Source of the DNA: a virus
Strand: one strand, 5' to 3'
DNA length: 58,666 nt
UHGV virus genome: UHGV-1373577
Shown here piece by piece: positions 1 to 58,666 of the stretch (position 1 is its first letter; every line of letters starts with the position of its first letter). The position numbers and the translations under genes are program-made. Below the pieces are notes generated by a model. That model made no database searches. It was not told the origin of the DNA and saw only the letters and a program-made list of their open reading frames with translations.

Positions 1-60
1 GGACGGCCCCCGACCATGACGACGACGAACGAGGACGGCCCCCGACCATGACGACCTACG
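1..60. repeat. Tandem imperfect ~32-bp repeats (ggacggcccccgaccatgacgacgacgaacga, then ggacggcccccgaccatgacgacc...) that include the start codon of gene 48..2030. Same unit recurs at the window end.
   Basis: Direct reading: nt 1-32 and 33-56 are near-identical. Nt 58635-58666 is a third copy. Confidence 0.6.
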
Positions 61-2030
61 ACGTGTACTCGAAGAGGGGCGCCGACAACCGCTTCGCGCC
101 CAAGGCGAGTGTCGACGCCCTCACCAATGCCCAGGTCGCCCAGGGGGCCGAGATAGGGACCCTCAAGGAGCAGGTGCGGGCCCAGCTGCTCCTGTCGAAC
201 ATGCTGCCCCGTCAGGGGGGCCCGGGCACCCCCAGCGCCCTCGTCGTCGGGTTCATCGGCGATTCCTGGAGCACCCCCGGCGCCGGAGGCCAGGGGGGCG
301 CCCCCGAGGAGGCGACCATGGTGTCCGTCGCCGCTAAGAGGCTCGGTGTCGGGGCCGCGGTCAGCGGGCAGGGGTCCACGGGCTGGGCCCATGTCCCCTC
401 CCCGCAGGGCAGCACCGGGTTCTTCAGCGCCCCTGAGCGTGTCGACGCCGTCCTCGACGCCCACCCGTCCCTGCTCGTCGTCGTCGGCTCCGTGAACGAC
501 AACTGGGCGATCGACCAGCCCCCGACCCCGGCCGACCCCGCCTCCGGCCCCAGAGCCATCAGCCAGTCCGTCAAGGCCCTTGTCGATCGCGTCAGAGACC
601 GGGCCCCCGCCCTGCCGATCATCGTCGTCGGGCCCCAGCCCACCTCCGAGTACCGCACCTACGCGGGCTCCAGCCACAAGAGCGCCGCCGCGGTCAAGGC
701 GGGTGTCGAAGCCGCCGGGGGCCTCACGAATGGGATCTGGTTCAGTGACTGGCTCGGTGTCGCGACCAGCCCGGCCACCAGGTGGGACCCGGCCTCATCG
801 CCCAACCGGCACTGGGGGCGGGGCGAGATCATCTGCTACGACGGGGTGAACTACGAGGTGACGGCCGACGCCTGGGTCCCGGGCGCGAACCCCGACGCCG
901 CCGACCCCTACCTGGCGTCGTTCCTGCCGTCGGCGCCGGTGTCGAGGAGGACGGCGGTCCTGTCGGGGCGGGGGGCCGTCGGCAAGACCCCCGCCAGCGG
1001 GACCCGGGCGCTGTGGCTCATGAACGACGAGACGCACGTGAACGTGGGCGGGGCGCAGGCGTTCGGCGTCGAGCTGGCGGACCGGGTCATCGAAGGAACT
1101 CAAGCCCTCCGGGACTGGATCATCGGGCAGGGCCCCGTGGTCGTCCGCCCGGCGCCCCCGCCCGCCCCTCCGCCGCCGGGGCCCAACCCCCCTCCGCCGC
1201 CCGCCCGGCCCACGGGGGCGCTGGCCGACGTGCGCGACGCGCGCTGGGGCGTGAAGTGGGGGGCGCTGTCGGCCACTGCGCTTCAGGGGGCGCTGTCGCA
1301 GCTGCCGGAGGGCGCGGCCGTGAGGGGGTCCGCAGCCCTGCCCGTGCGCATGAGCAAGGACGAGGGCGCGGACAGGTTCGTGACGTCCACGGTGTCGTCC
1401 ATCACCCCGAAGGGCGGCGGTGCGGCCGTGCGCATCAACCAGTCCACCATCGCCCAGCTCAAGGCCGTCGAGGACGTCAACGGGGTGGTGGCGACCCTGG
1501 GCGAGGCGCTCGACATCCTGGACGCCGCACCCGCGCGCACCCCGATCATCGTGGAGTGCATGGACACGTCGAACGACATCATCGCGGACTACTGGGTGTA
1601 CGACCAGAAGATGATGCAGTACCTGCTGGGGCGCTACGGGGCCCGGGCCGCCGAGCGGGTCATCGTCGCCACCAACGGGACGCTGAACGCGGCCAGGAGC
1701 AAGGCGAAGGCGGATGCGGCGCTGAAAGTGCTGCCCCGCCTGGCGTACAAGCCGTCCGGGCCGTGGACCGCCGAGGACGTGGGCGCCCTGAAGGCCGTGG
1801 ACATGATCGCCTGCCGGTCGAACGACACCTCCAAGCCGGAGGTGCTGGCGGCCATCAAGAACCACCCGGAGAAGCCGGGGCTGTGGTGGGCGGGCATGAC
1901 GACGGCGGCGCACGTCGACGCCGCCAAGGCGGCGTCGAAGGCGGCGGGGCTGGCGATCGAGGGCTGGATCATGGAGGCGAAGGAGGCCGCTCCGGGGGCC
2001 CTGTCGACGGCGCTGCCCGTCAGGCCGTAG
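48..2030 (+). CDS. SGNH/GDSL-hydrolase-like esterase (candidate LysB-like lipolytic lysis protein or virion enzyme). Has a Pro-rich linker and a C-terminal domain of unknown function.
   Basis: 660-aa ORF. VVGFIGDSWST (GDS block I) and VVVGSVNDN (GxND block III) motifs. PAPPPAPPPPGPNPPPPPARP linker. Sits immediately upstream of the endolysin. Confidence 0.5.
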   Translation: MTTYDVYSKRGADNRFAPKASVDALTNAQVAQGAEIGTLKEQVRAQLLLSNMLPRQGGPGTPSALVVGFIGDSWSTPGAGGQGGAPEEATMVSVAAKRLGVGAAVSGQGSTGWAHVPSPQGSTGFFSAPERVDAVLDAHPSLLVVVGSVNDNWAIDQPPTPADPASGPRAISQSVKALVDRVRDRAPALPIIVVGPQPTSEYRTYAGSSHKSAAAVKAGVEAAGGLTNGIWFSDWLGVATSPATRWDPASSPNRHWGRGEIICYDGVNYEVTADAWVPGANPDAADPYLASFLPSAPVSRRTAVLSGRGAVGKTPASGTRALWLMNDETHVNVGGAQAFGVELADRVIEGTQALRDWIIGQGPVVVRPAPPPAPPPPGPNPPPPPARPTGALADVRDARWGVKWGALSATALQGALSQLPEGAAVRGSAALPVRMSKDEGADRFVTSTVSSITPKGGGAAVRINQSTIAQLKAVEDVNGVVATLGEALDILDAAPARTPIIVECMDTSNDIIADYWVYDQKMMQYLLGRYGARAAERVIVATNGTLNAARSKAKADAALKVLPRLAYKPSGPWTAEDVGALKAVDMIACRSNDTSKPEVLAAIKNHPEKPGLWWAGMTTAAHVDAAKAASKAAGLAIEGWIMEAKEAAPGALSTALPVRP

Positions 2031-2060
2031 CGTGAACCAACGAACGAGAAGGAGGACGAC

Positions 2061-3800
2061 ATGAGCGTTGTCGGGAATGAGGCCGCGGCGAGGATGGCGT
2101 ACTGGTGCGCCACCGATGAGAAGGGGGGTGTCGGCTACGACCAGGGGACCCGGGAGGAGATCCGGGACCTGTCTTATGTCAGTACGCCTCGGCTGACCGG
2201 GGCCGTGGACTCCGACTGTTCGGCCATGGTGGCGGCGGCCTGCAACCTGGGTCTGCGGGCGGCCGGTGTCGTGCCCGCGGACGCGGGGGACGGCGACCCC
2301 CGCCTGCTGCCCGCGTCCACGTGGACGGGGTCGATGCGCTCCGAGCTGGAGGCGAGGGGCTGGCGGGAGGTCCACTGGGACGACGCCGCCATGACGCCCG
2401 ACGGCGGCTTCCGGAAGGGCGACGTGGTCCTGTCGTCGAAGGACGAGGGGGGTGTCGGGCACGTGGCCATGGTCGTGGACGACAACCCCTCTGATCCGGT
2501 CCTGGCCGAGGCGTGGATCGACGAGCGCGGGGAGATCACCGGCGGGGCCGTCGGCGACCAGACCGGAGGGGAGACCCGGCTCGTGTCCTACTCGGCGCAT
2601 ATTTATACACAGCGTGGTGCGTGGACGTCCTGCCACCGGTACGCGGGGGCGGAAGCGACCCCCGCCCCGCCCTCCGCCTCCTCCTCGTCCGCCCCCGCCC
2701 CTTCCAACGGAGGCAAGCCGGGGCCGCTGCTCGGTGTCGACATCTCCAAGTGGCAGGCGGGCATCAACATCGGCGCGGTCAACCCCGACTTCGTCATCGT
2801 GAAGGTGACGCAGGACGCCGGGGCCTACGCCACCACCAACCCGAACCACGTCGAGCAGCTGGGCGCCGCTCTGTCCCTGGGGCGGCCCACCGGTGTGTAC
2901 CACTACGTCGGGGGCGGGGACAACGGGAACGCCGACGACGCCCTCGCGGAGGCGAACAGGTTCCTGGACGCCGTCAGGGCGACCGGTCACCAGGACGACG
3001 TCTTCTACGCCATCGACTGGGAGTCGATCGAGAACTCGGCCTGGGGGAACCTGGCGTACCTGTCGATCATCGTCGGCAAGGTGCAGTCGGCCACGGGCAA
3101 GCCCGTGCTCCTGTACGCCTCCTCGGGGAGCTACCCGTGGAAGGTCGCCCAGGACTACGGGTGCGTGCCGTGGGTGGCGCAGTACGCCGACGAGGAGCCC
3201 ACCGGTTGGGACGCCTCGCCCTGGACGGACGGCTCCTGGGGCACCGAAGGGCGCATGCACCAGTACACGGGAACGGGGCGGGTGCCCGGCTACGGGGGCG
3301 ACCTGGATCTGGACGTGTGGCACGCCTCCGAGGCGGCCCTGCGAGCGCTGGCCCCCTCCGGCGGCCCTGTCGTTTCGGCCCCTCCGGCCCCCGCGCCCCG
3401 CGAGACGGCCCTCGACGGCCAGGAGCTGCTGGAGGTCGACGGCGAGTGGGGCTCACGGACCGTCGCTCGCTTCCAGCAGGTCATGGGCACCCCCATCGAC
3501 GGCGTGCTCGACGACGACGGATCCGCCTGCATCGAGGCGTTCCAGCGGTTCCTCAACGGGGCTGTCGGCCCCGCTCACCTGTCCAATCTGATCGGCGCCC
3601 CGGCCCTTGAGGTTGACGGCATCGACGGCGAGCGGACGTGGAAGGCGTTCCAGTTCCTCGTGTGGGCCTGGCACAGGGAGTACGTGCCCGACGGCTGGGA
3701 CTTCGGCGACTGGATCGACGGCGTCGACGGCCCCGCCACCGTCAAGGCCCTCCAGCGGGCGCTGAACGTGTCGACGGCGGGCACCGGTAGACTGTGGTGA
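2061..3800 (+). CDS. Endolysin: N-terminal NlpC/P60-type peptidase, central GH25 muramidase, three C-terminal peptidoglycan-binding repeats.
   Basis: DCSAMV...GDVVL...GHVAMVV (NlpC/P60 Cys/His motifs). GVDISKWQAGI...DFVIVKVTQ...VYHYV...YAIDWE (GH25). Three DGxxGxxTxxAFQ repeats. RBS gaaggagga before the ATG. Confidence 0.8.
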   Translation: MSVVGNEAAARMAYWCATDEKGGVGYDQGTREEIRDLSYVSTPRLTGAVDSDCSAMVAAACNLGLRAAGVVPADAGDGDPRLLPASTWTGSMRSELEARGWREVHWDDAAMTPDGGFRKGDVVLSSKDEGGVGHVAMVVDDNPSDPVLAEAWIDERGEITGGAVGDQTGGETRLVSYSAHIYTQRGAWTSCHRYAGAEATPAPPSASSSSAPAPSNGGKPGPLLGVDISKWQAGINIGAVNPDFVIVKVTQDAGAYATTNPNHVEQLGAALSLGRPTGVYHYVGGGDNGNADDALAEANRFLDAVRATGHQDDVFYAIDWESIENSAWGNLAYLSIIVGKVQSATGKPVLLYASSGSYPWKVAQDYGCVPWVAQYADEEPTGWDASPWTDGSWGTEGRMHQYTGTGRVPGYGGDLDLDVWHASEAALRALAPSGGPVVSAPPAPAPRETALDGQELLEVDGEWGSRTVARFQQVMGTPIDGVLDDDGSACIEAFQRFLNGAVGPAHLSNLIGAPALEVDGIDGERTWKAFQFLVWAWHREYVPDGWDFGDWIDGVDGPATVKALQRALNVSTAGTGRLW

Positions 3801-3847
3801 TGTCGGCCCCGGGCCGACACAGGTTGGACCGCGAGGAAGGAGGCGCC

Positions 3848-4066
3848 GTGGGCGCCTACAGCAAGAAGACATTCTGGATGGGGGTCGCCGAGCGGGCGAC
3901 CAAGACGTTCGCCCAGGCGGCCGTGGCGGCGATCGGCACGGCGGCGCTTCTGAGCGAGGTGAACTGGGTGGCGGTGGGTTCGACGGCGGCGCTGGCGGCG
4001 CTGCTGTCGGTGCTCACCGCACTGGGTGATCCCAAGGCGACCGACATCGCCGTCGCGCAGGGCTGA
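3848..4066 (+). CDS. Holin, phage_r1t-like (two transmembrane segments).
   Basis: GTG start after RBS ggaaggagg. MGAYSKKTFWMGVAERATKTFAQA matches the r1t-holin N-terminal signature. Hydrophobic stretches follow. Directly downstream of the endolysin. Confidence 0.6.
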   Translation: MGAYSKKTFWMGVAERATKTFAQAAVAAIGTAALLSEVNWVAVGSTAALAALLSVLTALGDPKATDIAVAQG

Positions 4067-4133
4067 TCCCCGCACCGCGAACCGCGCCCCCGGCACCTCA
4101 CAAGGGTGCCGGGGGTTCTTCGTGTCCGCCACT

Positions 4134-4454
4134 TTTCCACAGGGTTTTCCACAGGTGGTGTCAACCTTGGTTGCTGAGGGGTGTCTCATGCCACACCAAT
4201 GTGGTCGGGGTCATAGGGGCTCGGGCTTTCGTTGGAAAACCGCCAAAACGCCCTGTGCACGAAGTTGGGGATAACTTGTGGATAAGTGGCCTCCTGACGG
4301 GGGGCAACTGACCATTAGAACTACCGTTCTAATCGGCCCTCCACAGAACCCCTAATTTTGTCCACTTCTGCGCCCACAAGCTAAACCGTTTTAGTACACA
4401 CGGCCATCCACAGGCAAAGCCGCGTCATACCAACGAAAAGTGGGGTTATCCACA
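4134..4454. promoter_or_regulatory. Cluster of six DnaA-box-like 9-mers in an AT-richer non-coding island.
   Basis: TTTTCCACA x2 (4134-4153), TGTGGATAA (4277-4285), TTGTCCACT (4368-4376), CCATCCACA (4404-4412), TTATCCACA (4446-4454). Confidence 0.4.
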
Positions 4455-4605
4455 GGAAAACCCGCTTACTACTACTACTTCTACCTCTTACATACCGCGG
4501 AGAAGAAAAAAGAAGAGCCGTCGTACAGGGGCTCCACCCCCGGCCACCACGGTCGCTTGCGAGCGGGTAGGATGTGTGCTAAGGCAGCACAGACGAAAGG
4601 GCGCC

Positions 4606-6234
4606 ATGACCACCTTCAGCGTGTACTCCCGTGACGGAGCGAACAGGCGGTTCGCCCTCCGCACCGAGACCGACGCCATCCGCAGCCTCCTGCCCGCCCT
4701 CACCGGGACCGGCACCGTCATCACCCTGCGTACCGGCGAACACGCCCCCGCTGGTACTAGGTCCGGCACCCTCGTCCTGCGCGAGAAGGCGGCCCTCGAA
4801 GGGGGCGTCGTCGTGCGCTCCTCGGCCGTCGGGCGGGCCCAGGCCGGTGTCGGCGACCCCCTCACCGCCACCAGCCAGCCCGGCGATTTGGCCGTGCTCA
4901 TCATGGCCGCCCAGCTCCAGGCCGACCCGACGCCCTCGCCCATTCCCGAGGGCTGGACGGGGACGTGGCAGCCGCAGATCGGGGGCACCAACCGCTCCGG
5001 CTACGTGGCCACGCGGAAGGTGACGGGGGCCACCGACACCCGCGGCGTGGAATGGTGGGTGAAGACCAAGGCGTGGACCGCCAGGCAGAGGGCCGTGCTC
5101 GTCATCCTGGCCGGTGTCGACGTCGATCGGGCGGCCGCCGGGCAGTGGAGCGCGACTCTGGGCGCGGCCCCGGCGGGCGCAACGGCCCGACTGCTCGTCT
5201 CGGCGGCCCACGGCACCAAGGACAACAAGATGGCGGCCTGGACCCTTGAGGGCGGGGCCGTCGTCGCCGACGGGCTGGCGGACGTGTCGACCACGGAGTC
5301 CTGGTCGGCGGTGCGCGCGGTGCTGGGCGGGGCCGACAAGCCCCCGGACGGGGCCGGAGCGAATCCCCCGGCCGCCTGGGCGCAGGTGGGCCTGGTGGCG
5401 AAGGCCGCCGGTGGGGGCGAGGATCTCGACGGGACGACGGTGCCCCTGCGGTTCGGGGGCGAGGCCACCCGGGCGGGGGTGTCGATCATGCCCTACGGGG
5501 CCCGGTCCGTCTCTGCGCTGAAGGAGGCGGGCGCAGGGCGCAAGAATCTTGTTATCGGGCACCGGGGCATGAGCGGGGCCGGGGATGTCGTGGAGCACAC
5601 CATGGCCGCGTACACCCGGGCGGTGGAGTGCGGTGTCGACGCCCTGGAGATCTCCTGCCACCGGACCTCCGACGGGGTGTGGCTCGCGTCGCACGACTCC
5701 ACTCTGGCGCGTCTGGGAGGCCCCTCCACGCCCATTCGGGACATGACCTGGGCCCAGGTGCAGGCGGCGTTCGCCGCTCGGCCCGAGGCCGTGCCGGTGA
5801 CGCTGAAGGACTACCTGGCGACCTACGGCGCAACGCACGTGACGATCTTCGACCCCAAGACGGAGATGGCCCGTTCCGACGAGTACCTGGCCCTGCTGAA
5901 GGACTACAAGGACCGTGTCGTCGTCAAGGCGTTCGCCGACGCCTGGTGGCTGTTCGCCAAGGTCAAGCAGGCCGGGTGGGCGACCTGGGGGTACGCCTAC
6001 GCCCGCAACCGCGGCCAGAACTGGTACCCGGACTTCGTCCAGGGCACGAACCTGGACTTCCTGTCGATGGAGTGGGATGCGTCGGATGACGTGTGGGCGC
6101 CGCTGGTGGCCACCGGCAAGCCGGTCATCGCCCACATCCCCGCCTCGGTCGCCCAGGCTGCGGAGGGCGCCCGCAAGGGGGCCGCGGGGTGCATCACGTC
6201 GCGCGCCGACCTCGTGGCCGGGCTGAAGGTGTAG
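4606..6234 (+). CDS. Glycerophosphodiester phosphodiesterase (GDPD) domain protein. N-terminal tag is shared with gene 48..2030.
   Basis: C-terminal VIGHRGMSGAG...VEHTMAAY...ALEISCHRTSDGVWLASHDSTL matches GDPD catalytic motifs (HRG, E..D..T.DG....HD). N-terminus MTTFSVYSRDGANRRFA parallels MTTYDVYSKRGADNRFA of gene 48. Confidence 0.65.
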   Translation: MTTFSVYSRDGANRRFALRTETDAIRSLLPALTGTGTVITLRTGEHAPAGTRSGTLVLREKAALEGGVVVRSSAVGRAQAGVGDPLTATSQPGDLAVLIMAAQLQADPTPSPIPEGWTGTWQPQIGGTNRSGYVATRKVTGATDTRGVEWWVKTKAWTARQRAVLVILAGVDVDRAAAGQWSATLGAAPAGATARLLVSAAHGTKDNKMAAWTLEGGAVVADGLADVSTTESWSAVRAVLGGADKPPDGAGANPPAAWAQVGLVAKAAGGGEDLDGTTVPLRFGGEATRAGVSIMPYGARSVSALKEAGAGRKNLVIGHRGMSGAGDVVEHTMAAYTRAVECGVDALEISCHRTSDGVWLASHDSTLARLGGPSTPIRDMTWAQVQAAFAARPEAVPVTLKDYLATYGATHVTIFDPKTEMARSDEYLALLKDYKDRVVVKAFADAWWLFAKVKQAGWATWGYAYARNRGQNWYPDFVQGTNLDFLSMEWDASDDVWAPLVATGKPVIAHIPASVAQAAEGARKGAAGCITSRADLVAGLKV

Positions 6235-6393
6235 TACGCTTGCCCGGCGGGCTTCTCATCTCTCTTCCCCCGCACGCCCCCGGTGTCGACCGTCTACGGC
6301 ACCGGGGGCATCCGCTTGCAGGAAACAGATGTGTACTGTATACTGAAACCACGGCCCGGGACGGAACGGGCCCGGAAGAGAGGAAGACGAAGC

Positions 6394-6972
6394 ATGAGCA
6401 GAATCAACGAGAGACGAGCTGAGATCCTCGCCAAGGCCAGGGCGCGCAAGGCGGAGATCGCCCACACGGCGCCATCCGAGAACACGCTACGGCGACGGGA
6501 CCAGGTCAAGCGGGTCAAGGGGCTCCTGCGCGAGTTCATCCTCGACCACGGCGTCGAGATCAAGGACGCGGGCAGGGTCACGGGGTACGAGTCCACCGCT
6601 CGGCTGCCCCGCCACCTCAGCCGCGGCATGATCGACCTTGAGGACCTCCTGGCCCTGACCGAGTACTTCGAGGACCTCGACATCACCACCATCCTGCGCG
6701 ACGTCATCCTCGGTGTCGATCTGCGCCCCGACGAGGCGCAGGCCCGCCGGGAGGGGACGATCACCCCCGACGGCGAACGGGTTGCGGCCCCCGAGGAGCC
6801 GGAAGAGGAGAAGGAGCTCAGCGCACCCTCCGTCCCCTCGCCGCAGGAGGACGAGGAGATCGTGGTCATCCAGCCCGACGCCATCGCCCCGCCGCAGGAG
6901 GACGACGAACCCTCGCTCGACACCGACGAGGGCCTGAGGGCCTGGGCCAACAGGTTCGGGTTCGCGATGTGA
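6394..6972 (+). CDS. Hypothetical protein with acidic C-terminus.
   Basis: ORF with RBS gaagaggaagacg. Coding-like composition. No motif recognised. Confidence 0.4.
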   Translation: MSRINERRAEILAKARARKAEIAHTAPSENTLRRRDQVKRVKGLLREFILDHGVEIKDAGRVTGYESTARLPRHLSRGMIDLEDLLALTEYFEDLDITTILRDVILGVDLRPDEAQARREGTITPDGERVAAPEEPEEEKELSAPSVPSPQEDEEIVVIQPDAIAPPQEDDEPSLDTDEGLRAWANRFGFAM

Positions 6973-7075
6973 CGGCTTGACAGACGCCCGACGGGGTGGG
7001 AGCATCTTCCCGGGAGACGGCATCCCGGCCCCCGGCACCAGCGGACGGTGCCGGGGGCTGCCCTATACTCGGGGC

Positions 7076-7440: not shown

Positions 7441-7492
7441 GCGCGTTGTCGACGCACCGCCCCCCACCGAGGGCGTCATCGCCCGGACGGGG

Positions 7493-51148: not shown

Positions 51149-51183
51149 GATGATACTTCCTCTCTTATCGGTTGAGTTGGTCG

Positions 51184-51237: not shown

Positions 51238-51246
51238 TACCGGGGC

Positions 51247-51285: not shown

Positions 51286-51286
51286 T

Positions 51287-52003: not shown

Positions 52004-52023
52004 TGTGTCTTCCTCTCTTCCTT

Positions 52024-52320
52024 TCAGTACCCGAAGAGGACCTGTTCAAGCGCGTCGGTCAGCTCCCGACGCAGGCCGTCCTCCGTGGGGCCGAAAACCT
52101 CATCGCCGTGCAGACGCACAGCCACGAGCGCGGCGTTGGCTTCCTGCGGGGCCAGGTCATGCACGGCAAGCCGGGCCACAACGCCCGCCGGGATCGTGGG
52201 GAAGGCCGTCAGATGGGTGATGGCCCGGCGCAGATCGCGGTAGTCCCCGGTGCGCAGGGACAGGTAGGCCATGCGGGCCTGTTCGACAACGGCCTGCGTT
52301 GTGGCGGCATTCGTGCTCAT
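52024..52320 (-). CDS. Hypothetical protein.
   Basis: 98-aa ORF. Confidence 0.35.
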   Translation of the reverse strand: MSTNAATTQAVVEQARMAYLSLRTGDYRDLRRAITHLTAFPTIPAGVVARLAVHDLAPQEANAALVAVRLHGDEVFGPTEDGLRRELTDALEQVLFGY

Positions 52321-52358
52321 TGTTTTCCTCCCGGTTTTCGTGGGTGTGTGAGTGTTGC

Positions 52359-52643
52359 TCAGCGGGCGGCCCGACGGGCACGGTGGTCCCGGATGGCCTT
52401 GTACTCGTTCAGGAACGCCCGGGACCAGTACCGCAGACTGGGCAGAGGATCCCAGTCCCCAGTCTTGCGTCCCTTGCGGGCGGCCTGAAACAGGACGTCT
52501 CCCGCCGCCTTGAAGTCCTCATCATTCTTCAGGCGGTACAGCCAAAGGCCGTACTCGCCGATGCCCCTGCGTCCAAACTTAATGGTTTCGTGCAGGTAGT
52601 CATTCGTTACCTGTACGATCCACTCCCGGGTTTGGGCGTCCAT
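52359..52643 (-). CDS. Hypothetical protein.
   Basis: 94-aa ORF with RBS GAAAGGAAGAGAC. Confidence 0.4.
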   Translation of the reverse strand: MDAQTREWIVQVTNDYLHETIKFGRRGIGEYGLWLYRLKNDEDFKAAGDVLFQAARKGRKTGDWDPLPSLRYWSRAFLNEYKAIRDHRARRAAR

Positions 52644-52689
52644 TGTCTCTTCCTTTCAGTTGTGTGCCGTACGGATTGCACGACATTCG

Positions 52690-52734
52690 TGCCCCGGGCC
52701 CGCGACGAACGGGCGATGGTTCTCCCTCCGGGGC
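52690..52734 (-). ncRNA. tRNA-like minihelix F (45 nt). Acceptor GCCCCGG/CCGGGGC, 13-nt joiner, T-arm GCCCG-TTCGTCG-CGGGC.
   Basis: Perfect helices, read on the - strand. A discriminator. Preceded by the GNRA-type hairpin GCGGGAC-GAAA-GTCCGC. Confidence 0.4.
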
Positions 52735-52740
52735 TGCCGT

Positions 52741-52780
52741 AGCGGACTTTCGTCCCGCGCCGGCTCGATTTTTGGGGCTC
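52741..52780. terminator. Hairpin gcggac-tttc-gtcccgc followed by gccggctcgattttt on the + strand. Parallels the 51247 element.
   Basis: Direct reading. T-tract on the + strand only. Confidence 0.35.
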
Positions 52781-53138
52781 AGCCCCGGTTCTGGCGCCAG
52801 ATGACGTAGCTAGTGCCCGTGCGGTTCCCGCGATCCTGGGCGTCCCAGTAACAACCGTCATAGGACGCGGGGATAGCCTCGTCCCCCGCCTCATCGGTGA
52901 GGCAGGCGGCGACCGGCACCCAAGCACAGTCCTCGGCTCCCGCGGTAGAAGTCTCGAAGCACCGGGGCGCCAAGTGGGTGGGTTCAGTCCCGGCCGGGGC
53001 GGCCGTCGTGACGACGGCGGGAGCCGGCTGGGTGGTCGGGGCGGGCTCCCCCGACGCGATAAGGGCGACGACGCCGGCGGCCATTCCGCCTGCGAGGACG
53101 AGCGCCGCCGCCACTGGGGCGGCGTCACGGATGTTCAT
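52779..53138 (-). CDS. Secreted / membrane-anchored Cys-containing protein.
   Basis: N-terminal hydrophobic AAPVAAALVLAGGMAAGVVALIA. Four Cys in the mature part. Confidence 0.4.
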   Translation of the reverse strand: MNIRDAAPVAAALVLAGGMAAGVVALIASGEPAPTTQPAPAVVTTAAPAGTEPTHLAPRCFETSTAGAEDCAWVPVAACLTDEAGDEAIPASYDGCYWDAQDRGNRTGTSYVIWRQNRG

Positions 53139-53175
53139 TTGGGTTCTCTCTCTTCGATTGGTGGGTGGGTGCTTA

Positions 53176-53526
53176 TCAGGCGCGACGGGTCAGCCCGTCG
53201 CAGCCGATGACGGTTCCGTCCTCGTCCCGGAGCAGGCGCCCCGGGCTCATAAGGTCCCCGCGGCTCGCCGGGGCGGCGTCACTAACCGCCTTGGCGACGA
53301 TGAGGATCACGTCCTCCTCGGGCTCGGGGAGACCAACGATCTCCCGCGGGCTCCCGGCCACGCTAATCTGGACTTCGTGTCCGGCGATATTGGTCTGCTC
53401 GGGCGGGAGCCGGTCATACACGACGCGCGCGGCGCCCCGCTCATCCGGCGGGATGACGACGGTGGCCCCGTCCAGCGCCTTGATGCTCAGCGCGTGGGGC
53501 GTGAGGTTACGGTAGATCGTGGTCAT
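53176..53526 (-). CDS. Hypothetical protein.
   Basis: 116-aa ORF with RBS GAAGAGAGAAGAACC. Confidence 0.4.
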   Translation of the reverse strand: MTTIYRNLTPHALSIKALDGATVVIPPDERGAARVVYDRLPPEQTNIAGHEVQISVAGSPREIVGLPEPEEDVILIVAKAVSDAAPASRGDLMSPGRLLRDEDGTVIGCDGLTRRA

Positions 53527-53888
53527 GGTTCTCTTCTCTCTTCGGTTGTGGGCCGCATTGTTGCGGAGCGCCGATCTTTCAGGCGCATCCCCGCTTGCGC
53601 GGGGTTAAAGGTGGGTTGGGTTCAGGCGCTGGCGGCCGCGCGCTCGAAGAATCGGGCGATGGCGTCCCGGTCCTCGATCGGGGCGCTGTGGCCGCGACGG
53701 TCGGTAATGCCGTCTCCGAGGATCGTGAAGGCGCCGATCACGCGGCCCCGGTAGAGCGCATTCCCGTTGCCGGTCACACCGGCTTCGGGGATGATGCTCC
53801 GGAGGTAGTCCCCGCGCCGCGCTGGGTGGGGACAGTGGCCCTGGTATTCATTTTCGGTTCCTCTCTTCGAAGGTGCTGCGTTTCAGCG

Positions 53889-53942
53889 CGCCCGGGCGCG
53901 GGATCGAACCGCACTGCGTCCTCCGCCGTGGGGCGGCCGGGC
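53889..53942 (-). ncRNA. tRNA-like minihelix D (54 nt). Acceptor GCCCGGC/CCCGGGC (6 of 7 bp), joiner with a CGCC-CCAC-GGCG hairpin, T-arm TGCGG-TTCGATC-CCGCG.
   Basis: Read on the - strand between the stop at 53951 and the tiny ORF start at 53870. Confidence 0.35.
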
Positions 53943-53950
53943 CGATAGGG

Positions 53951-54676
53951 TCAGAGATAGTAGTCGTGTTCACGCAGGTAGGCGTCCGCGGCCTCGATCA
54001 CGGGCCGCACGATATCGTCCATATCCCGCCAGTCGACGGGCTCAGTGCGCCCGGGGCGCATCATGTGGGCGCCGCCGTCGGGCCCGGTGAGGGTGACGCT
54101 GCCGTCATCCTTCCAGTCGACGGAGATGATGACGACGCCGCAGTCCCCGTAGCTCTTCCCGTTCCTGCGCACCACAGAGGCGCCCTTGGTGGCCGCCTCG
54201 ATCGCGTGCTCAATGGTCCTGGCCGCCGCGCACGCCGCGGCCCGGCGCAGCCGACGCCGAATCTGCGCCACAGTGCGCAGACGATCGTCGCCCAGACCCA
54301 GGATCACGCCTCCGGCGCCGATGGGCGCCGTGATCACTCGGCCGCCCTGGCGGTCGGTCCCGCACGTGCGCAGTCCGCCGCCCGCTTCGGCGGCCAGATA
54401 GCGGGCTGCGAGTGCGGCGATCGCCCACGGGGCGTCGTCGTCGGCCAGACGGATGGCGTCCCCGCCGTCCGCGGGATAGAGGACGGCGTCATCCTTGGCG
54501 CCGCTGAGATACCCGAGGATGGGCCGTTTCGGCGTCCCGAGCCGGATCACGGCGTCGGCGCCGTCGGCGGAGAGATTGTGAACAAGGCCGCCCCGGATTG
54601 CGAGTGCCGGGGCGATATCCGCGATCCGCAGCCGCAGGTCGGCCACAGCGGTACGGTAGCAGGTCTTGAGGTTCAT
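53951..54676 (-). CDS. Hypothetical protein.
   Basis: Start MNLKTCYRTAV after RBS GAAAGGAACCGAAAA. About 241 aa. Confidence 0.4.
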   Translation of the reverse strand: MNLKTCYRTAVADLRLRIADIAPALAIRGGLVHNLSADGADAVIRLGTPKRPILGYLSGAKDDAVLYPADGGDAIRLADDDAPWAIAALAARYLAAEAGGGLRTCGTDRQGGRVITAPIGAGGVILGLGDDRLRTVAQIRRRLRRAAACAAARTIEHAIEAATKGASVVRRNGKSYGDCGVVIISVDWKDDGSVTLTGPDGGAHMMRPGRTEPVDWRDMDDIVRPVIEAADAYLREHDYYL

Positions 54677-55250
54677 TTTTCGGTTCCTTTCGGAATTGGG
54701 TGGGGATGATAATGGGTGCCCGGTCCTCTTCTGACAGAGTCCTCTCGTCACCATGCGGGTGACCGGGGCGGTTCTGAGCCGTCCGCTCGGTGTTACCGGG
54801 CCGCGTATTTCGTCTTAAATCCGTTCATCTCACGCCCCAGGACCGTTCTGGGCGTCCCACGACATATGATGATACGGGCTCCCGGTCCCCTTGGGGACCG
54901 GTCCTGCGCATCGTCGTGGGCGTCCGCACGGCCCTATGGGCACGGATCGCGTCTGGCTCGCCAGCCGCTCGCGGTAATTTTTAACCGTCTATTGCATTAC
55001 CGCGAATATGTAGTTCTCAATCTTCCCGGGGTAAGGATGAGACCGGAGGACTTCGTCCTCGCTCTCTTCCTCCCCTTTGTGATGACTCCAGTCTAGCGCG
55101 CCTGTTGGGGTTTGTCTATGCTTGATTCTGTGTTCTACGTCTCTTTGAGGTTTGAGGTTCAAACTCGGGAGTTCGTCCGCCGGATGGCGGGGCCGACAAA
55201 TGCTCGTCCTGTTCGCGCGCTATGCAGTTGTGCTGAGTCGCGCCCGCCGG

Positions 55251-55303
55251 AGGAATCGAACCCCCGGGCCCGCCGTCATGGGCGACGGCGGGCGACCATC
55301 CGG
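55251..55303 (-). ncRNA. tRNA-like minihelix E (53 nt). Acceptor GCCCGCC/GGCGGGC, joiner with a CGCC-CATGAC-GGCG hairpin, T-arm GGGGG-TTCGATT-CCTCC (one G-U pair).
   Basis: Read on the - strand, 14 nt after the stop of gene 55317..55655. Confidence 0.4.
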
Positions 55304-55316
55304 GCTGTAGCGGGGC

Positions 55317-55655
55317 TCAGTCCTCGGCCGGGGCGAAGAGCATGCGCACGATCTCCCGGCGCGCCCGGTCACTCGGAGCGATGCCCGTCAGCCGGACGAT
55401 GGCGCGGGCCGGGAGCTCCGAGACCAGGGAGACCACCTGGGGCAGCGTGAGGTTCTGGGTAATGGCGCGGTAGCCGCCCTCATCCATGGCGTCCTGCCAC
55501 TGGGCGGCGATATCGCCGTCGGGATCGGTGAGGATCGCGAAGGCGTCCTCATAGAGGCGCCCGATGAGGGGAGTCATGCCGTCCTGGCGGATGGTCCAGT
55601 GGGCGAGTGGGAAGCCGTACATCTGGGCCGGCTGGGTGATGCTCCCGGGGTTCAT
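55317..55655 (-). CDS. Hypothetical protein (first gene of the leftward block).
   Basis: 112-aa ORF with RBS GAAGGGAACACCGAG. Confidence 0.4.
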   Translation of the reverse strand: MNPGSITQPAQMYGFPLAHWTIRQDGMTPLIGRLYEDAFAILTDPDGDIAAQWQDAMDEGGYRAITQNLTLPQVVSLVSELPARAIVRLTGIAPSDRARREIVRMLFAPAED

Positions 55656-56389
55656 CTCGGTGTTCCCTTCGATCGGTGCTCCTTGCTGACGGGTATAAAT
55701 GTACTCGCCCCGTGAGGGCTGGTCAAGGGGTGAGGGCGGTTGTGGAGCGTGTTCTGCGTCTCATTTTGAGTTGGGGGCGGGGATGAGGGCACGACTCACT
55801 TCGTGATCTCGACAATCCCCGGGGCGCACGGATGATGCTCGTCAGTTTCACGTGAAACATATGAGTAGGGAATGGCGGGGTATGGGGCGGGGAGTCGACA
55901 TGCGCTTGGCTGCCTTGCGTGCTCCTGCGTCGCACGCGCGTCTCGCCAGCGCGTGACCTAGAGCACATAGAAGCGGGGATGCACAAGGATGGGGGTAAGG
56001 CAAGGGACAAAAGTCCCGAAGAGAGGATTGGGTTGGTTGGGGGTAGGGCGAAAGTTTCGGGTAGCCGAAACATGGTATGTGTGACGTAGGTATGTGCGGC
56101 GTGGTATTACGTCTGGCGTATCATCCTCGGGGAGGAGAAGTGTGATGGAGAAGACATACATTTGGGGGTAGACAGAATGACTTGGGTATGCTATGGAGAA
56201 TGAGATGGGGATCACAGGGGATGAGGGTTGAAGATAACGTTGTTATGTGTATGTGTGAGTAGCAATCTCGCGTGAGGGTGGGTTGGGAGTATGGAAATCT
56301 CGTCCCAAAAATAGTGAAGTTCGGGTAAATGTGACTTGGACCATATGCATAAAGATACGGTTGAGTGCATATTGCGTTATCTTCGTAAT

Positions 56390-56465
56390 AGATGATGATG
56401 ATGATGATGATGATAGATGATGATTGATGATATATGATAGATGATAATAGATGATAGACGATGAC
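56390..56465. repeat. (GATGAT)n microsatellite degenerating into GATAGATGA variants.
   Basis: gatgatgatgatgatgatgatgatagatgatgattgatgatatatgatagatgataatagatgatagacgatgac. Confidence 0.8.
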
Positions 56466-56525
56466 TATATTTGGTAAACGATAGTCTTTAATCCTGCGTT
56501 TACTATTTCCTGTTCAACGCTAAAT

Positions 56526-56620
56526 GTGACCTAAGTTACGTTATCTATTTTTGACTTTGTGACCTGGGTTACGTTAACTATTCTTGATTGTGGCCTGGCT
56601 CACGTTTATCTATATTTGAC
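56526..56620. repeat. Three tandem iteron-like repeats of about 32 bp (GTGACCTRRGTTACGTTAWCTATTYTTGA).
   Basis: gtgacctaagttacgttatctatttttgac / gtgacctgggttacgttaactattcttgat / gtggcctggctcacgtttatctatatttgac. Confidence 0.7.
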
Positions 56621-57768
56621 GGCCTTTTACGCATACGTCGGCCTCGGATTGGTACTCATTAGACAAGCGTCGAATTAGCCTTTCACGCTGGGTTGAAACG
56701 ATTCGAAGCCGAATCGTCGCTGTACGGGGCCTAGAACGGCCCATACCCCTACCCCCAGGCAGTTACACCGACCGGGGTGAGTTAGGCCGCCAGCGTGGCT
56801 TACAGCGCGTCGGAGACCCATATGGGCCTGCCTCAGTACACACCCATGCACACGCACGCGCGCGTGATAGCACCATAGGGAGGAAAGTGCAAGGGTGAGT
56901 TTGTGTGCGGTGAGTCATGTGTCTTGACACAGTGTGTGTGAGCAAGGCAACAAATTAGTGGGAGTGCCCCATCGTTTCGATTTGGGGTAGGAGCTGCGTT
57001 CCGCCCACGGGGACCTTTCGTTGGCACCGTAGGGAAAGGTGCCGATAAGTACCGTTATGACAATTTACTTAGCAGACTATCTACATACCGGGGAGTTTTT
57101 GAGCGGGGCATTTTAGTGCGTGCGTGGGAGAAAATCAATGTGACGTCGCTCGCAGCCGGGCGAAGGCGAAATCGGATGCTCTCGACGACGGGGCGTGGCA
57201 CGCGGGTGTGAGGTCGCTCATCTTTCCCCGCACCCTACCCACCTAAACCCCCAACTTCCCTACTCGCCTAGCAGAGTGTCGACTGATCCGTCAAAACGGC
57301 CCTCCTCGCCTCCCGAGACCCAATATAAGTTTATGCACTCTTTTTATCCATGGCTGCATAAACGTGTTCCACGTCACGAGTACTAAACCAGCCCCTTCAG
57401 CCACACAAACCCCGCCCGTACCATAGGACTTCGGACCCATCACCCCGACCTACTCCAGCCATCTCAACGAAAAGTCCCCCTTAGGCCACCCTAAGAAAAT
57501 CCTGCATATTTCCTATGCACACCCATGCATAAAACCCTAATATTTCGGCCTTGTCCGCAATCTGAGATTTTCGCCGAATATGTCTACTGCGTCACACTTT
57601 TTTATCCACTCAACCCCCTCCTCTCCTCAGTACCTATCTGTTACTGGTGTGACTCCACATCATCAAACACACCCCATCAGCACCAAACATCTTGATTCCT
57701 CGAAGACAGTTACCCGTGCGGCCTGTGTGACTAAGCCCGACCGCAAAACCCCTCTCCACCATCATCAA

Positions 57769-58050
57769 GGGGGTGTCGATGCCTCCTAGGCCCCGAAACC
57801 CCGATACAACTTCTCTGTTTACTATGCGAACCCCTTCCTCCTCTTCTTTCGCCCCCTCCTCCTGAGCCCCGCCAGTCACAGCCCGGCCCTCAGCCCTTCC
57901 GCGCCCCGCCGACCCGGCCGTCCGCTTCAACGCCCTCTCCTCAAGGGCGGGGGTGTCGACAAACCCCCTTGACAGTCCGCCAACACCGGTTATAATCGCG
58001 CGCCCGCGCACGCGCGGTAATAAGAAGGAGAAGCCGGAGGGGGTGTCGAA
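57769..58050. promoter_or_regulatory. Three spaced copies of AAGGG(CG)GGGGTGTCGA upstream of gene 58089..58631. Candidate operator, pac or ori protein-binding sites.
   Basis: caagggggtgtcgat (57769), agggcgggggtgtcgac (57948), ggagggggtgtcgaa (58038). Confidence 0.35.
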
Positions 58051-58088
58051 CCCCGAAACGGGCAGGAACCTCGTGATATCCTCAAGTC

Positions 58089-58631
58089 ATGCGGATCGAG
58101 ATCAAGCCGCCCTCCGGCGCCACCCCGCCCCTTCGGCCCGGGGCGCTCGTGACCCTCCGTGTCGAGGCCGCCGACCCGGCCCCGCGAATCGACGGCCCGG
58201 TGTCGATCGCCTACGAGGGCCGCTACGCCCCCGCCAACAACCCCCCGGCCTTCCTGTTCCCGGAGAAGGACCCCGCCCCGGGGGTGTCGACCGCCACCAG
58301 CGCGGCATCCGATTTCCGCACCCCCGCCGCCACCCCCTCATCGCCCCATGTCGACATTCCCGCCCACGAGGGCGACACGATCACGGCGACCCTCATCACC
58401 GCACCCCCGAACGCCAAGACCTACAGCGCGGCCCTCAGGGCCCCGGCCCCCGGAAACAACCCCCACCAGCCCGTCGAGATGACCCTCGTAGAAGGCGGCG
58501 CTGCACCGCCCACTCCGCCGACGCCGGGGCCGGCGCCCGGGCTGACCATCACCCCCGACGACCCCGACGACCCCGACGTGCTCACCCTCGACCCCGCCCC
58601 CGGCAACGACAACATCGTCGTCGTGGGCTGA
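58089..58631 (+). CDS. Pro/Ala-rich hypothetical protein. Adjacent to the esterase-like gene if the genome is circular.
   Basis: 180-aa ORF. Contains sense-oriented GGTGTCGA copies, like other + genes. Weak RBS. Confidence 0.4.
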   Translation: MRIEIKPPSGATPPLRPGALVTLRVEAADPAPRIDGPVSIAYEGRYAPANNPPAFLFPEKDPAPGVSTATSAASDFRTPAATPSSPHVDIPAHEGDTITATLITAPPNAKTYSAALRAPAPGNNPHQPVEMTLVEGGAAPPTPPTPGPAPGLTITPDDPDDPDVLTLDPAPGNDNIVVVG

Positions 58632-58666
58632 GAAGGACCCCCGACGACCATGACGACGACGAACGA
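58632..58666. repeat. Third copy of the ~32-bp terminal/tandem repeat, matching nt 1-32.
   Basis: gaaggacccccgacgaccatgacgacgacgaacga versus ggacggcccccgaccatgacgacgacgaacga at nt 1-32. Confidence 0.6.

What the first reader, a model, noticed from the sequence alone, without database searches (positions are those of the whole stretch)
1..58666. Octamer SGTGTCGA: about 20-fold over-represented and co-oriented with transcription in both gene blocks
Hand counts of GTGTCGA on the + strand:
- + gene block (1-28700): about 34 copies, versus about 7 of its reverse complement TCGACAC.
- - gene block (28754-55655): the bias reverses, with about 16 TCGACAC versus about 6 GTGTCGA on the + strand.

So the motif lies on the sense strand about 5:1 in both blocks. 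For this base composition I estimate one to two copies expected per 28 kb.

The motif occurs in at least two reading frames (GGT-GTC-GAC as G-V-D, and G-GTG-TCG-A as V-S), and in non-coding DNA (57769, 57948, 58038, 58200, 58285). It is therefore a DNA-level or RNA-level signal, not a peptide motif. GGT is also a disfavoured Gly codon at this GC content.

Possible roles: a Chi-like recombination hotspot for the host RecBCD/AdnAB, a replication or packaging polarity signal, or an RNA-level element. The three GGGGGTGTCGA sites upstream of 58089 may be high-affinity versions of the same motif.
Basis: seen in the sequence. Interest (0 to 1): 0.8.

Follow-up and report, generated by a model that had tools for sequence, protein, structure and literature searches.

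The report
Sense-strand heptamer GTGTCGA saturating phage genes

Summary
There are 61 copies of GTGTCGA co-oriented with transcription and 21 opposed (2.9:1, not 5:1).

- **Enrichment.** It is 17-fold over base composition. It is about 7-fold over order-2 Markov models and over synonymous-codon shuffles (56 in genes against 8.4±2.7, z 17.6). The opposed copies are explained by codon usage.
- **Saturation.** 46-67% of all tripeptides able to spell the word do so, using rare GGT and CGT codons. Those tripeptides are themselves about 1.9-fold enriched.
- **Non-coding copies.** Four copies are conserved islands in variable DNA around a perfect sigma-70 promoter.
- **Family-wide.** The signal (core TGTCG) is present in every relative found in IMG/VR. 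Individual sites are conserved in close relatives but not in distant ones.
- **Lineage-specific.** It is absent from two unrelated phages that carry the same endolysin type.

Not supported: a peptide or codon-pair artefact, a bipartite promoter, a packaging signal and one-strand nick sites. A host Chi site is disfavoured, but only by proxy phages.

My best guess (about 0.3) is a polar protein-binding site acting on transcription, like mycobacteriophage stoperators but not a member of that family. A primase or replication-polar site is nearly as likely.

The parts
1..28695 (+). Rightward (+) arm: lysis-like, packaging, head and tail genes. It carries 36 co-oriented GTGTCGA copies, starting at 109, 439, 703, 939, 2734, 3768, 5114, 5284, 5479, 5633, 6283, 6713, 8901, 9021, 9103, 9544, 9705, 10550, 11494, 11939, 14641, 15376, 16045, 16619, 17574, 18840, 19658, 20109, 22874, 25203, 25346, 25611, 25949, 26274, 27400 and 28652.
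   Evidence: Positions; frames and genes. In the genes of this arm there are 35 copies against 3.8 expected from synonymous shuffles. 51% of the possible sites are realised.
28754..48308 (-). Leftward (-) arm, distal and middle part (RuvC-like, nucleotide kinase, PolA, primase, Bro-N, Sak4, exonuclease, SNF2 helicase). It carries 18 co-oriented copies, read as TCGACAC on the + strand, starting at 29185, 30893, 31675, 32416, 32470, 32557, 33259, 34651, 34828, 35068, 35914, 37316, 37392, 37670, 41593, 45004, 45591 and 48176.
   Evidence: Genes 28.7-38.6 kb have 14 copies against 2.2 expected, with 61% of possible sites realised. Genes 38.6-48.3 kb have 4 against 1.6, with 24% realised. Gene functions.
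48327..55655 (-). Promoter-proximal part of the - arm (small genes of unknown function) with no copy of the heptamer.
   Evidence: 0 of 6 possible sites are realised. 0 copies against 0.3 expected. The core TGTCG is still 10 against 4.5, so on its own the absence is only weakly significant.
55656..58088 (.). 2.4-kb non-coding control region between the divergent arms. It holds AT-rich repeat arrays (56380-56620) and four + oriented heptamers in its right part.
   Evidence: In 56700-58088 GTGTCGA occurs 4 times against 0.065 expected (P 7e-7) and TCGACAC 0 times.
57276..57282 (+). Non-coding copy (TAGCAGA-GTGTCGA-C).
   Evidence: Intact in 8 of 9 relatives that cover it. Identity is 0.95 in the heptamer and 0.88 in the flanks.
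57773..57779 (+). Non-coding copy (AGGGGG-TGTCGA).
   Evidence: Identity is 0.99 in the heptamer and 0.68 in the ±15-nt flanks across relatives.
57953..57959 (+). Non-coding copy 9 nt upstream of the -35 hexamer of the consensus promoter.
   Evidence: Identity is 0.94 in the heptamer and 0.72 in the flanks. The arrangement TGTCG-N6-14-TTGACA-N15-18-TATAAT is present in 8 of the 10 relatives that carry the promoter.
57969..57996 (+). Perfect sigma-70-type promoter, TTGACA-16 nt-TATAAT, pointing into the + arm.
   Evidence: 12 of 12 matches. It is invariant in the alignment and occurs exactly once in each of 10 relatives.
58043..58049 (+). Copy in the leader about 45 nt downstream of the promoter (GGAGGGGG-TGTCGA).
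   Evidence: Present in most relatives, but at shifted positions relative to the promoter and the start codon. Identity is 0.93 in the heptamer and 0.66 in the flanks.
58089..58631 (+). First gene of the + arm. It carries three copies (58159, 58200, 58284). Together with the four non-coding copies this makes 7 copies within 1 kb.
   Evidence: 3 of 3 possible sites are realised. Conservation.
6917..45031 (.). 21 copies opposed to transcription, all in the frame xTC-GAC-ACx. In the + arm: 6917, 8275, 8716, 14949, 16217, 21018, 21195, 24166, 24955, 25800. In the - arm: 30130, 30890, 32413, 32863, 36720, 37535, 39691, 40107, 40281, 42374, 45025.
   Evidence: 21 observed against 15.9 expected. 21 of 23 [FLIV]-D-T tripeptides spell it simply through preferred codons, and the tripeptide itself is not significantly enriched (1.3-fold, z 1.2).

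Best explanation
GTGTCGA is a positively selected, strand-specific cis-acting signal. Its extended form is G-N-N-S-GTGTCGA, and the core shared by the whole family is TGTCG. Synonymous-codon choice, and partly amino-acid choice, have embedded it in the sense (non-template) strand of the middle and late genes of this Amigo-like siphovirus. It also occurs around the main rightward promoter. It is read at the DNA or RNA level by a factor particular to this phage lineage.

The mechanism I think most likely is an asymmetric binding site for a phage-encoded protein whose effect on transcribing RNA polymerase depends on orientation. This would be a polar roadblock or silencer, working like the stoperators of cluster A mycobacteriophages. 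In this model, copies beside and just downstream of the consensus promoter control entry into the + arm. Copies scattered through both arms act on elongation. The heptamer-free, promoter-proximal part of the - arm would stay expressed.

**Shown:** the enrichment, the strand specificity, purifying selection, lineage specificity and the promoter-proximal cluster.

For: - **Selection on the word itself.**
  - Sense copies: 56 against 8.4±2.7 under synonymous shuffles.
  - 22 of 37 G-V-[DE], 11 of 24 R-V-[DE] and 22 of 33 V-S-(Axx) tripeptides spell it.
  - The enabling tripeptides are 1.8-1.9-fold enriched (z 5.9 and 4.0). Five of six control tripeptides are not enriched; LS[IMTNKSR] is 1.5-fold (z 2.6).
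- **Purifying selection.**
  - GGT inside the motif is conserved 79% against 38% elsewhere, and CGT 76% against 40%.
  - There is no positional conservation below 75% identity, yet the density is kept.
- **It follows transcription.**
  - The orientation flips with the arms.
  - In the 61% GC clade, a clade-specific gene lying reversed inside the + arm carries TGTCG on its own sense strand: 8 against about 2.2 expected.
- **Regulatory-looking placement.**
  - 7 copies lie within 1 kb at the start of the + arm.
  - One lies 9 nt upstream of the -35 of an invariant perfect promoter, and one lies in its leader. These are conserved islands (0.93-0.99 identity) in flanks of 0.66-0.72 identity.
  - Three of the four non-coding copies lie upstream of that promoter, which argues for DNA rather than RNA.
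- **No preference for even spacing.** Spacing is Poisson-like (CV about 1) and includes an 8.2-kb gap.
- **Lineage-specific.** The motif is absent from L101 and L105, which have the same endolysin type.
- **The L5 control shows the same global pattern.** Its stoperators are co-oriented with transcription in both arms and clustered near the early promoter.
Against: - No repressor or other DNA-binding reader was identified. There is no homologue of L5 gp71, and the early genes have no Pfam or PHROG hits.
- No integrase was found, and the syntenic cluster AQ phages are not reported as temperate.
- A 7-bp site is short for a specific repressor, and 56 of the 61 copies lie inside genes, unlike stoperators.
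- The evidence from the reversed gene rests on one gene in one shallow clade. The motif copies could have been inherited along with the gene.
- The absence from 48.3-55.7 kb is only weakly significant (0 against about 2-3 expected if the enrichment applied there).
- In Amigo and Molivia a similar GTGT-type word is enriched on both strands with regular spacing. That points to a DNA-level function independent of transcription, if the two motifs are related.
Confidence: 0.3

Rival explanations
1. Replication-polar single-strand signal. The motif would be the recognition or initiation site of the phage's own primase (812 aa, PHROG 'DNA primase', DUF3987) on the lagging-strand template, or less likely a Chi-like site for a phage-specific nuclease. 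Forks would leave the AT-rich repeat region near 56.4-56.6 kb in both directions, co-directionally with transcription, so the lagging-strand template would be the sense strand in both arms.
For: [quoted passage not shown]
- The density is about 1 per kb.
- Individual sites turn over while the density is maintained.
- The signal is lineage-specific.
- The syntenic Amigo and Molivia, whose primase is 32% identical, have SGTGTGC. It shares the GTGT start, is 3-4.5-fold enriched on each strand, and is spaced more regularly than random (CV 0.52-0.71, P at most 0.011).
- T7 control: two of its three known primase pentamers are mildly enriched on the sense strand. TGGTC is 76 against 51.6, and GTGTC is 38 against 20.5 while its complement is not enriched.
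- The non-coding copies lie next to the putative origin.
Against: - The reversed gene in the 61% GC clade keeps the motif on its own sense strand.
- Spacing in this window is Poisson-like, with an 8.2-kb gap to the left of the putative origin and no - strand copies there.
- Known primases read 3-5 nt. No 7-11-nt primase site with 7-fold enrichment is known to me, and T7 shows only 1.5-1.9-fold.
- The sense strand is C-rich, not G-rich. That is not what a leading strand usually looks like.
- The origin is not established.
- For host Chi specifically: the proxy phages of the presumed host lack the motif.
Confidence: 0.25
2. RNA-level element. GUGUCGA in the messenger RNAs, or the same word in the non-template strand of the transcription bubble, would be bound by a phage-specific factor. 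That factor would promote elongation or anti-termination, or would stabilise or process middle and late transcripts.
For: - Selection is strictly for the sense strand.
- The reversed gene follows its own transcription direction.
- One conserved copy lies in the leader about 45 nt after the promoter, and three more lie in the first 300 nt of the first gene.
- Some non-coding copies sit between G-runs and C-runs that could form a hairpin loop.
- The heptamer is absent from the earliest genes.
Against: - Three conserved copies (57276, 57773, 57953) lie upstream of the only strong rightward promoter, and no upstream promoter was found.
- The coding copies are not presented in loops. Their unpaired probability is 0.33, against 0.38-0.40 for controls.
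- There is no Rfam match in the region above chance.
- Known anti-termination signals (nut, put, ops) occur once or twice per operon, not about 60 times.
- There are no promoter-proximal copies in the - arm.
Confidence: 0.15
3. Recognition sites of a phage nicking enzyme that puts single-strand interruptions into packaged DNA, as in T5, phiKMV-like phages and phage tf. Here the sites would be confined to the non-template strand so that transcription of incoming DNA is not blocked.
For: - The site is short, asymmetric and lineage-specific, with strict strand choice.
- The related cluster AQ phages have long direct terminal repeats, like T5 (PMC5513430).
- Phage tf, which also has two convergent arms, has 14 nick sites, TACT/RTGMC (PMC3517423).
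Against: - In tf, T5 and phiKMV-like phages all the sites lie on one DNA strand of the whole genome (PMC3517423). Here the strand switches between the arms.
- 61 nicks per genome would be far more than the 4-14 described.
- No nickase was recognised.
Confidence: 0.05
4. No dedicated function: a by-product of host codon-pair bias, of a repeated peptide, or of a context-dependent mutation bias.
For: - The sub-words are common in high-GC coding DNA. TCGACAC is fully explained by preferred codons.
- Every control phage has some top word with z 7-11.
Against: - Two frames are used, and non-coding copies are conserved within variable flanks.
- z is 17 against 7-11 for the top 7-mers of the controls.
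- Rare codons are used at 46-67% of the possible sites.
- The enabling tripeptides are enriched, while five of six control tripeptides are not.
- The motif is absent from two phages presumed to share the host, one of them a prophage.
- There is no flanking peptide or nucleotide conservation beyond -4 and -1.
Confidence: 0.03

Closest known systems
Stoperators of cluster A mycobacteriophages (L5 gp71 repressor, site GGTGGMTGTCAAG)
   Same: - Dozens of copies of an asymmetric site are spread over both arms.
- Nearly all copies have one orientation relative to transcription. In L5 I found 14 exact copies on the + strand of the leftward arm and 4 on the - strand of the rightward arm.
- There is a cluster near a strong early promoter.
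- The site is specific to the phage lineage.
   Different: - The site is 7 nt (9 informative positions), not 13.
- 56 of the 61 copies lie inside genes, not between them.
- The TGTC core lies on the sense strand here and on the antisense strand in L5.
- There is no gp71 homologue, and no integrase or recognised repressor.
- About twice as many copies.
- Binding and roadblock activity are untested.
Chi sites and other polar chromosomal oligomers (Chi, KOPS)
   Same: - A short asymmetric word, several-fold over-represented.
- Its polarity switches at two points of a circular map.
- Individual sites turn over while the density is maintained.
- It is partly accommodated through codon choice.
   Different: - Chi is a property of the host nuclease and is shared by host and phages. 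Here the word is absent from two phages with the same endolysin type, and the analogous word in Arthrobacter phages is lineage-specific.
- A reversed gene follows transcription, not arm direction.
- Whether the polarity relates to replication is unknown.
Primase recognition sites (for example T7 gp4: GGGTC, TGGTC, GTGTC)
   Same: - A strand-specific word on the strand that would be the lagging-strand template if forks run with transcription.
- The phage has its own primase.
- T7 shows a mild sense-strand excess of two of its sites.
- The heptamer contains GTGTC.
   Different: - 7-11 nt and 7-fold enrichment, against 3-5 nt and at most 1.9-fold.
- The primase here has no detectable TOPRIM or zinc-finger match; the only hit is DUF3987, and there is no relative in the PDB.
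- Spacing is irregular, with an 8-kb gap.
Localised nick sites of T5, phiKMV-like phages and phage tf
   Same: A short asymmetric consensus repeated along the genome with strict strand choice, in phages with terminal repeats and (for tf) convergent arms (PMC3517423).
   Different: Those sites lie on one strand genome-wide and number 4-14. Here the strand flips between the arms and there are 61 copies.

Membership tests
Cluster A stoperator / immunity-repressor system | Asymmetric site of 12-14 bp | tested here: not met
   Only the heptamer plus G at -4 and S at -1 carry information within ±70 nt.
Cluster A stoperator / immunity-repressor system | Tens of copies in both arms, co-oriented with transcription | tested here: met
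   61 co-oriented copies against 21 opposed. The opposed copies are explained by codon usage. The same pattern was reproduced for L5.
Cluster A stoperator / immunity-repressor system | A copy acting as operator at the early lytic promoter | tested here: inconclusive
   One conserved copy lies 9 nt upstream of the -35 and another about 45 nt downstream of a perfect promoter. Neither overlaps the hexamers.
Cluster A stoperator / immunity-repressor system | A gp71-family repressor is encoded | tested here: not met
   tblastn and phmmer of L5 gp71 against the window and all called proteins gave a best E-value of 0.8. No HTH domain was found in the early genes.
Cluster A stoperator / immunity-repressor system | Sites lie mainly between genes | tested here: not met
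   56 of the 61 co-oriented copies are inside coding sequence.
Cluster A stoperator / immunity-repressor system | Bound repressor blocks elongation in an orientation-dependent way | not testable with these tools
   This needs binding and reporter assays.
Chi (hotspot for the host RecBCD, AddAB or AdnAB) | The same word is over-represented in the host and in other phages of that host | tested here: not met
   Tested by proxy only. L101 (a prophage-like temperate phage) has TGTCG 12 against 8.9, and L105 has 12 against 11.8; both have the same ELLD+GH25 endolysin type. The host genome could not be obtained.
Chi (hotspot for the host RecBCD, AddAB or AdnAB) | Polarity follows replication (leading strand) | tested here: inconclusive
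   The polarity fits only if the origin lies in the 56.4-56.6 kb repeat region. A reversed gene follows transcription instead.
Primase recognition site | The phage encodes a primase | tested here: met
   Gene 34038-36476 matches PHROG 10514 'DNA primase' (E 1e-77) and DUF3987.
Primase recognition site | Sites lie on the lagging-strand template, whatever the gene direction | tested here: inconclusive
   The arms fit. The reversed gene of the 61% GC clade does not fit, but it is a single gene.
Primase recognition site | Primers start at the site | not testable with these tools
   This needs primase assays or mapping of Okazaki 5' ends.
Localised nick sites (T5, phiKMV-like, tf) | All sites lie on one DNA strand of the genome | tested here: not met
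   The strand switches at 28.7 kb and in the control region. The defining feature is taken from PMC3517423.
Bipartite or T4-late-type promoter | A second element at fixed distance, or placement upstream of genes | tested here: not met
   There is no second conserved position within ±70 nt. There is no preference for gene ends or starts.
Repeated peptide or codon-pair artefact | One frame and one peptide, absent from non-coding DNA | tested here: not met
   Two frames (34 and 22 copies), several peptides (G/R-V-D/E; V-S-x) and four conserved non-coding copies.

The most novel reading that the evidence does not exclude
The heptamer is a new kind of genome-wide polar signal: a word embedded in codons that a conserved enzyme of this phage lineage must meet about once per kilobase on one strand. 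That enzyme would most plausibly be an unusually sequence-specific primase, or an elongation-coupled factor. Selection for the word would be strong enough to dictate rare codons at most of the possible sites and to shift the amino-acid sequences of the proteins. Its specificity would drift between clades: GTGTCGA, then CCTGTCG, and possibly GTGTGC in Arthrobacter cluster AQ phages.
Probability: 0.35. Interest if true: 0.85.

Novelty: new variant of a known kind. Interest (0 to 1): 0.72.

Why it matters
If a phage needs a specific 7-mer on the sense strand of nearly every gene, that requirement constrains codon usage and even protein sequence. This effect is usually put down to translation or host mimicry.

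It would also give a simple sequence handle for three things:
- recognising this abundant family of phages in human-associated metagenomes;
- nominating the reader protein by following how the motif co-varies with gene content across clades;
- testing a regulatory or replicative mechanism (roadblock, primase specificity or elongation control) that has only one well-studied precedent in phages, the stoperators.

It is also a practical warning. Synonymous recoding or synthetic rebuilding of such phages may remove a functional signal.

Tried and rejected
**Searches that found nothing useful**
- Near-identical phage in GenBank: none.
- L5 gp71 homologue: none.
- Primase relatives in the PDB by sequence: none useful.
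- Pfam and PHROG scans of about 50 proteins to find a regulator: only Bro-N/Ant-like, Sak4, exonuclease, helicase, PolA and primase were recognised.
- Literature on cluster AQ: no repeat or motif is described there.

**Explanations rejected**
- *A longer motif hidden behind the heptamer.* There is no flank conservation beyond -4 and -1.
- *A promoter or start-associated signal.* There is no second element and no positional preference within genes.
- *An RNA hairpin loop presenting the motif.* Not supported for the coding copies, and there is no Rfam family.
- *Regular, Okazaki-like spacing in this window.* Rejected, CV about 1. It was found instead in Amigo and Molivia.
- *A packaging signal.* Rejected because the orientation flips between the arms.
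- *Avoidance of an alternative spelling as the driver.* Rejected, because GGC-GTC-GAx is at its expected level and no single synonym accounts for the deficit.

**Attempt that failed**
- Host identification. The host genome was therefore never tested directly.

**Claim I had to soften**
- The 'motif-free early region' is only weakly significant once its low expectation is taken into account.

Full report
**What the window is**

The window has 58,666 bp at 67% GC. It is a circularly closed assembly: a tandem repeat of about 32 bp spans its end and its start. There is no near-identical phage in GenBank.

My gene calls give 72 genes, arranged as follows:
- A rightward arm. It starts at a 180-codon gene at 58089, runs through the junction and ends at 28,695. 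It holds lysis-like, terminase, portal, head and tail genes.
- A leftward arm, 55,655 down to 28,754. It holds small unknown genes first, then SNF2 helicase, exonuclease, Sak4, Bro-N proteins, primase, PolA, nucleotide kinase and a RuvC-like gene.
- A 2.4-kb non-coding region between the two arms.

The layout is syntenic with Arthrobacter phage Amigo (cluster AQ), whose large terminase is 38% identical. Dozens of relatives at 70-94% nucleotide identity exist in IMG/VR; the sample numbers suggest human-microbiome samples, which I did not verify.

**Check of the observation**

- Exact counts: 54 GTGTCGA and 28 TCGACAC on the + strand. That is 61 copies co-oriented with transcription and 21 opposed.
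Its - block ratio was too generous: the true counts are 18 against 11.
- Expected copies of GTGTCGA on the + strand: 3.1 from base composition and 8.1 from an order-2 Markov model. A high-order model absorbs the excess because the sub-words are themselves enriched.
- It is the most over-represented 7-mer of the window, and GGTGTCGA the most over-represented 8-mer.

**Is it more than coding constraint?**

I shuffled synonymous codons within each gene, which keeps the proteins and the codon usage.
- Sense copies: 56 against 8.4±2.7.
- Antisense copies: 21 against 15.9±2.0.
- An unbiased scan of all k-mers against the same null puts TGTCG (175 against 54), TGTCGA, GTGTCG and GTGTCGA at the top. 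The best 7-mers in the control phages T7, L5, Laroye, Bennie and Amigo reach only z 7-11, against 17 here.
- 22 of 37 G-V-[D/E], 11 of 24 R-V-[D/E] and 22 of 33 V-S-(A..) tripeptides are spelled so as to give the word, although GGT and CGT are 9% and 6% codons.
- The enabling tripeptides are themselves 1.8-1.9-fold more frequent than in residue-shuffled proteins. Five of six control tripeptides are not enriched; LS[IMTNKSR] is 1.5-fold (z 2.6).
- The opposed orientation is saturated by preferred codons (21 of 23 [FLIV]-D-T) and is not significantly enriched at the protein level.
- Outside the heptamer only G at -4 (43 of 61) and S at -1 are preferred. Nothing else within ±70 nt stands out.

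**Comparative evidence**

- Every relative shows the sense-strand excess. This includes a 65% GC clade and a 61% GC clade, where the core is TGTCG preceded by CC or CG.
- Rare third-position T inside the motif is conserved 83% against 40% elsewhere in relatives of at least 90% identity, and 73% against 32% at 84-90% identity. It is not conserved below 75% identity.
- With codon-matched controls, GGT is conserved 79% against 38% and CGT 76% against 40%.
- So individual sites are under purifying selection but turn over, while the density is maintained.

**The non-coding copies**

- In 56,700-58,088 there are four copies, all rightward, against 0.065 expected.
- They are conserved islands: 0.93-0.99 identity, with flanks at 0.66-0.72 for three of the four.
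- One lies 9 nt upstream of the -35 hexamer of a perfect TTGACA-16 nt-TATAAT promoter. That promoter is invariant and unique in ten relatives.
- Another lies in the leader, and its position shifts between relatives.
- With three more copies in the first gene, this makes seven within 1 kb.

**Host or lineage?**

- As proxies I used two unrelated phages that share the ELLD+GH25 endolysin type, one of them temperate. Neither shows any excess.
- In the Arthrobacter system, Amigo has its own word, SGTGTGC. Laroye and Bennie infect the same strain and lack it.
- The signal therefore belongs to the phage lineage.

**Transcription or replication?**

In this genome the two cannot be told apart, because both arms could be replicated outward from the AT-rich repeats at 56.4-56.6 kb.

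Three observations lean towards transcription:
- A clade-specific gene lies reversed inside the + arm of the 61% GC clade and carries TGTCG on its own sense strand (8 against about 2.2 expected).
- Spacing is Poisson-like and includes an 8-kb gap.
- The copies cluster around the strongest promoter.

Two observations lean the other way:
- Amigo and Molivia have a GTGT-type word on both strands, spaced more regularly than chance.
- T7 shows a mild sense-strand excess of two of its known primase sites.

The apparent absence from the earliest genes of the - arm (0 of 6 possible sites) is only weakly significant once the low expectation there is considered.

**Explanations tested and not supported**

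- A peptide or codon-pair artefact: two frames are used and non-coding copies are conserved.
- A promoter: there is no second element and no positional preference.
- Presentation in an RNA hairpin loop: not seen for the coding copies.
- A packaging signal: the orientation flips between the arms.
- One-strand nick sites as in tf and T5.
- Membership of the stoperator family: no gp71 homologue, a 7-nt site, and mostly intragenic copies.

**Verdict**

This is a real, strongly selected, lineage-specific, strand-polar heptamer. I rank the explanations as follows:
- a stoperator-like polar protein-binding site acting on transcription: about 0.3;
- a primase or replication-polar site: about 0.25;
- an RNA or non-template-strand element: about 0.15;
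- nick sites: about 0.05;
- no dedicated function: about 0.03.

The remainder is for something not yet considered.

Noticed in passing
window 55845-55858: An exact copy of the bacterial chromosomal parS consensus, GTTTCACGTGAAAC, sits in the non-coding control region. It is the only copy in the window, even allowing up to 2 mismatches. No ParA or ParB was recognised among the phage proteins. It might recruit host ParB or point to a plasmid-like carrier state.
   Followed up: partly
window, all coding sequence: Restriction-type palindromes are strongly avoided relative to synonymous shuffles: CTGCAG 0 against 20.5, CTCGAG 0 against 29.9, GCCGGC 11 against 70.9. CGCG and runs of G or C are also depleted.
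   Followed up: no
window 56380-56620: An AT-rich island carries (GATGAT)n / ATAGATGATGAT repeats and three repeats of about 33 bp (TGTGACC..GTTACGTTATCTATTTTTGAC). TGTGAC-like words recur through the non-coding region. This is a candidate origin with iterons.
   Followed up: no
window 58620-58666 joined to 1-50: Three tandem copies of a unit of about 32 bp (GGACGGCCCCCGACCATGACGACGACGAACGA) span the end and the start of the window, each holding an ATG. This indicates a circular assembly or terminal redundancy. It lies just upstream of the 660-codon gene at 48.
   Followed up: no
L073 (Amigo, NC_041949) and L108 (Molivia, NC_042001): SGTGTGC is 3-4.5-fold over-represented on both strands in both arms: 51/41 and 63/46 copies per 50 kb, against about 14 expected per strand. 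Its spacing is more even than random (CV 0.52-0.71, P at most 0.011). It is absent from Laroye and Bennie, which infect the same host strain. The cluster AQ paper I read does not mention it.
   Followed up: partly
L075 (Bennie) and L074 (Laroye): Other Arthrobacter phages have their own top sense-strand words: GGTGGCG 35 against 6.8 in Bennie and CCTGAA 64 against 22 in Laroye. Lineage-specific sense-strand words may be common in actinophages.
   Followed up: no
L110 (T7): Under the same synonymous-shuffle test, two of the three known T7 primase recognition pentamers are mildly enriched on the sense strand: TGGTC 76 against 51.6 and GTGTC 38 against 20.5. The complement GACAC is not enriched.
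   Followed up: partly
window 36860-38558: Three adjacent genes encode Bro-N / Ant-like domain proteins that share the motif WF.A.D.A..LG.RD. They are possible DNA-binding candidates for reading the motif.
   Followed up: no
window 57997-58030 and relatives: A GC-rich inverted repeat (CGCGCGCCCGCG...CGCGCGCGG) follows directly after the consensus promoter. After it comes a conserved TAATAAGAAGGAG that lies far (about 55 nt) from the ATG at 58089, which has no obvious ribosome-binding site of its own.
   Followed up: no
L026 5470-6399, L037 4184-5188, L082 15472-16425: The 61% GC clade carries a gene of about 310 codons (MARKVRPVHCWG...) inserted in reverse orientation in the rightward arm. It has no homologue in the window or in the other clades.
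   Followed up: partly
window, whole + strand: CTCTCTT and TCTCTT are strongly skewed between the strands (17 against 2, and 25 against 4) and are over-represented under low-order Markov models.
   Followed up: no
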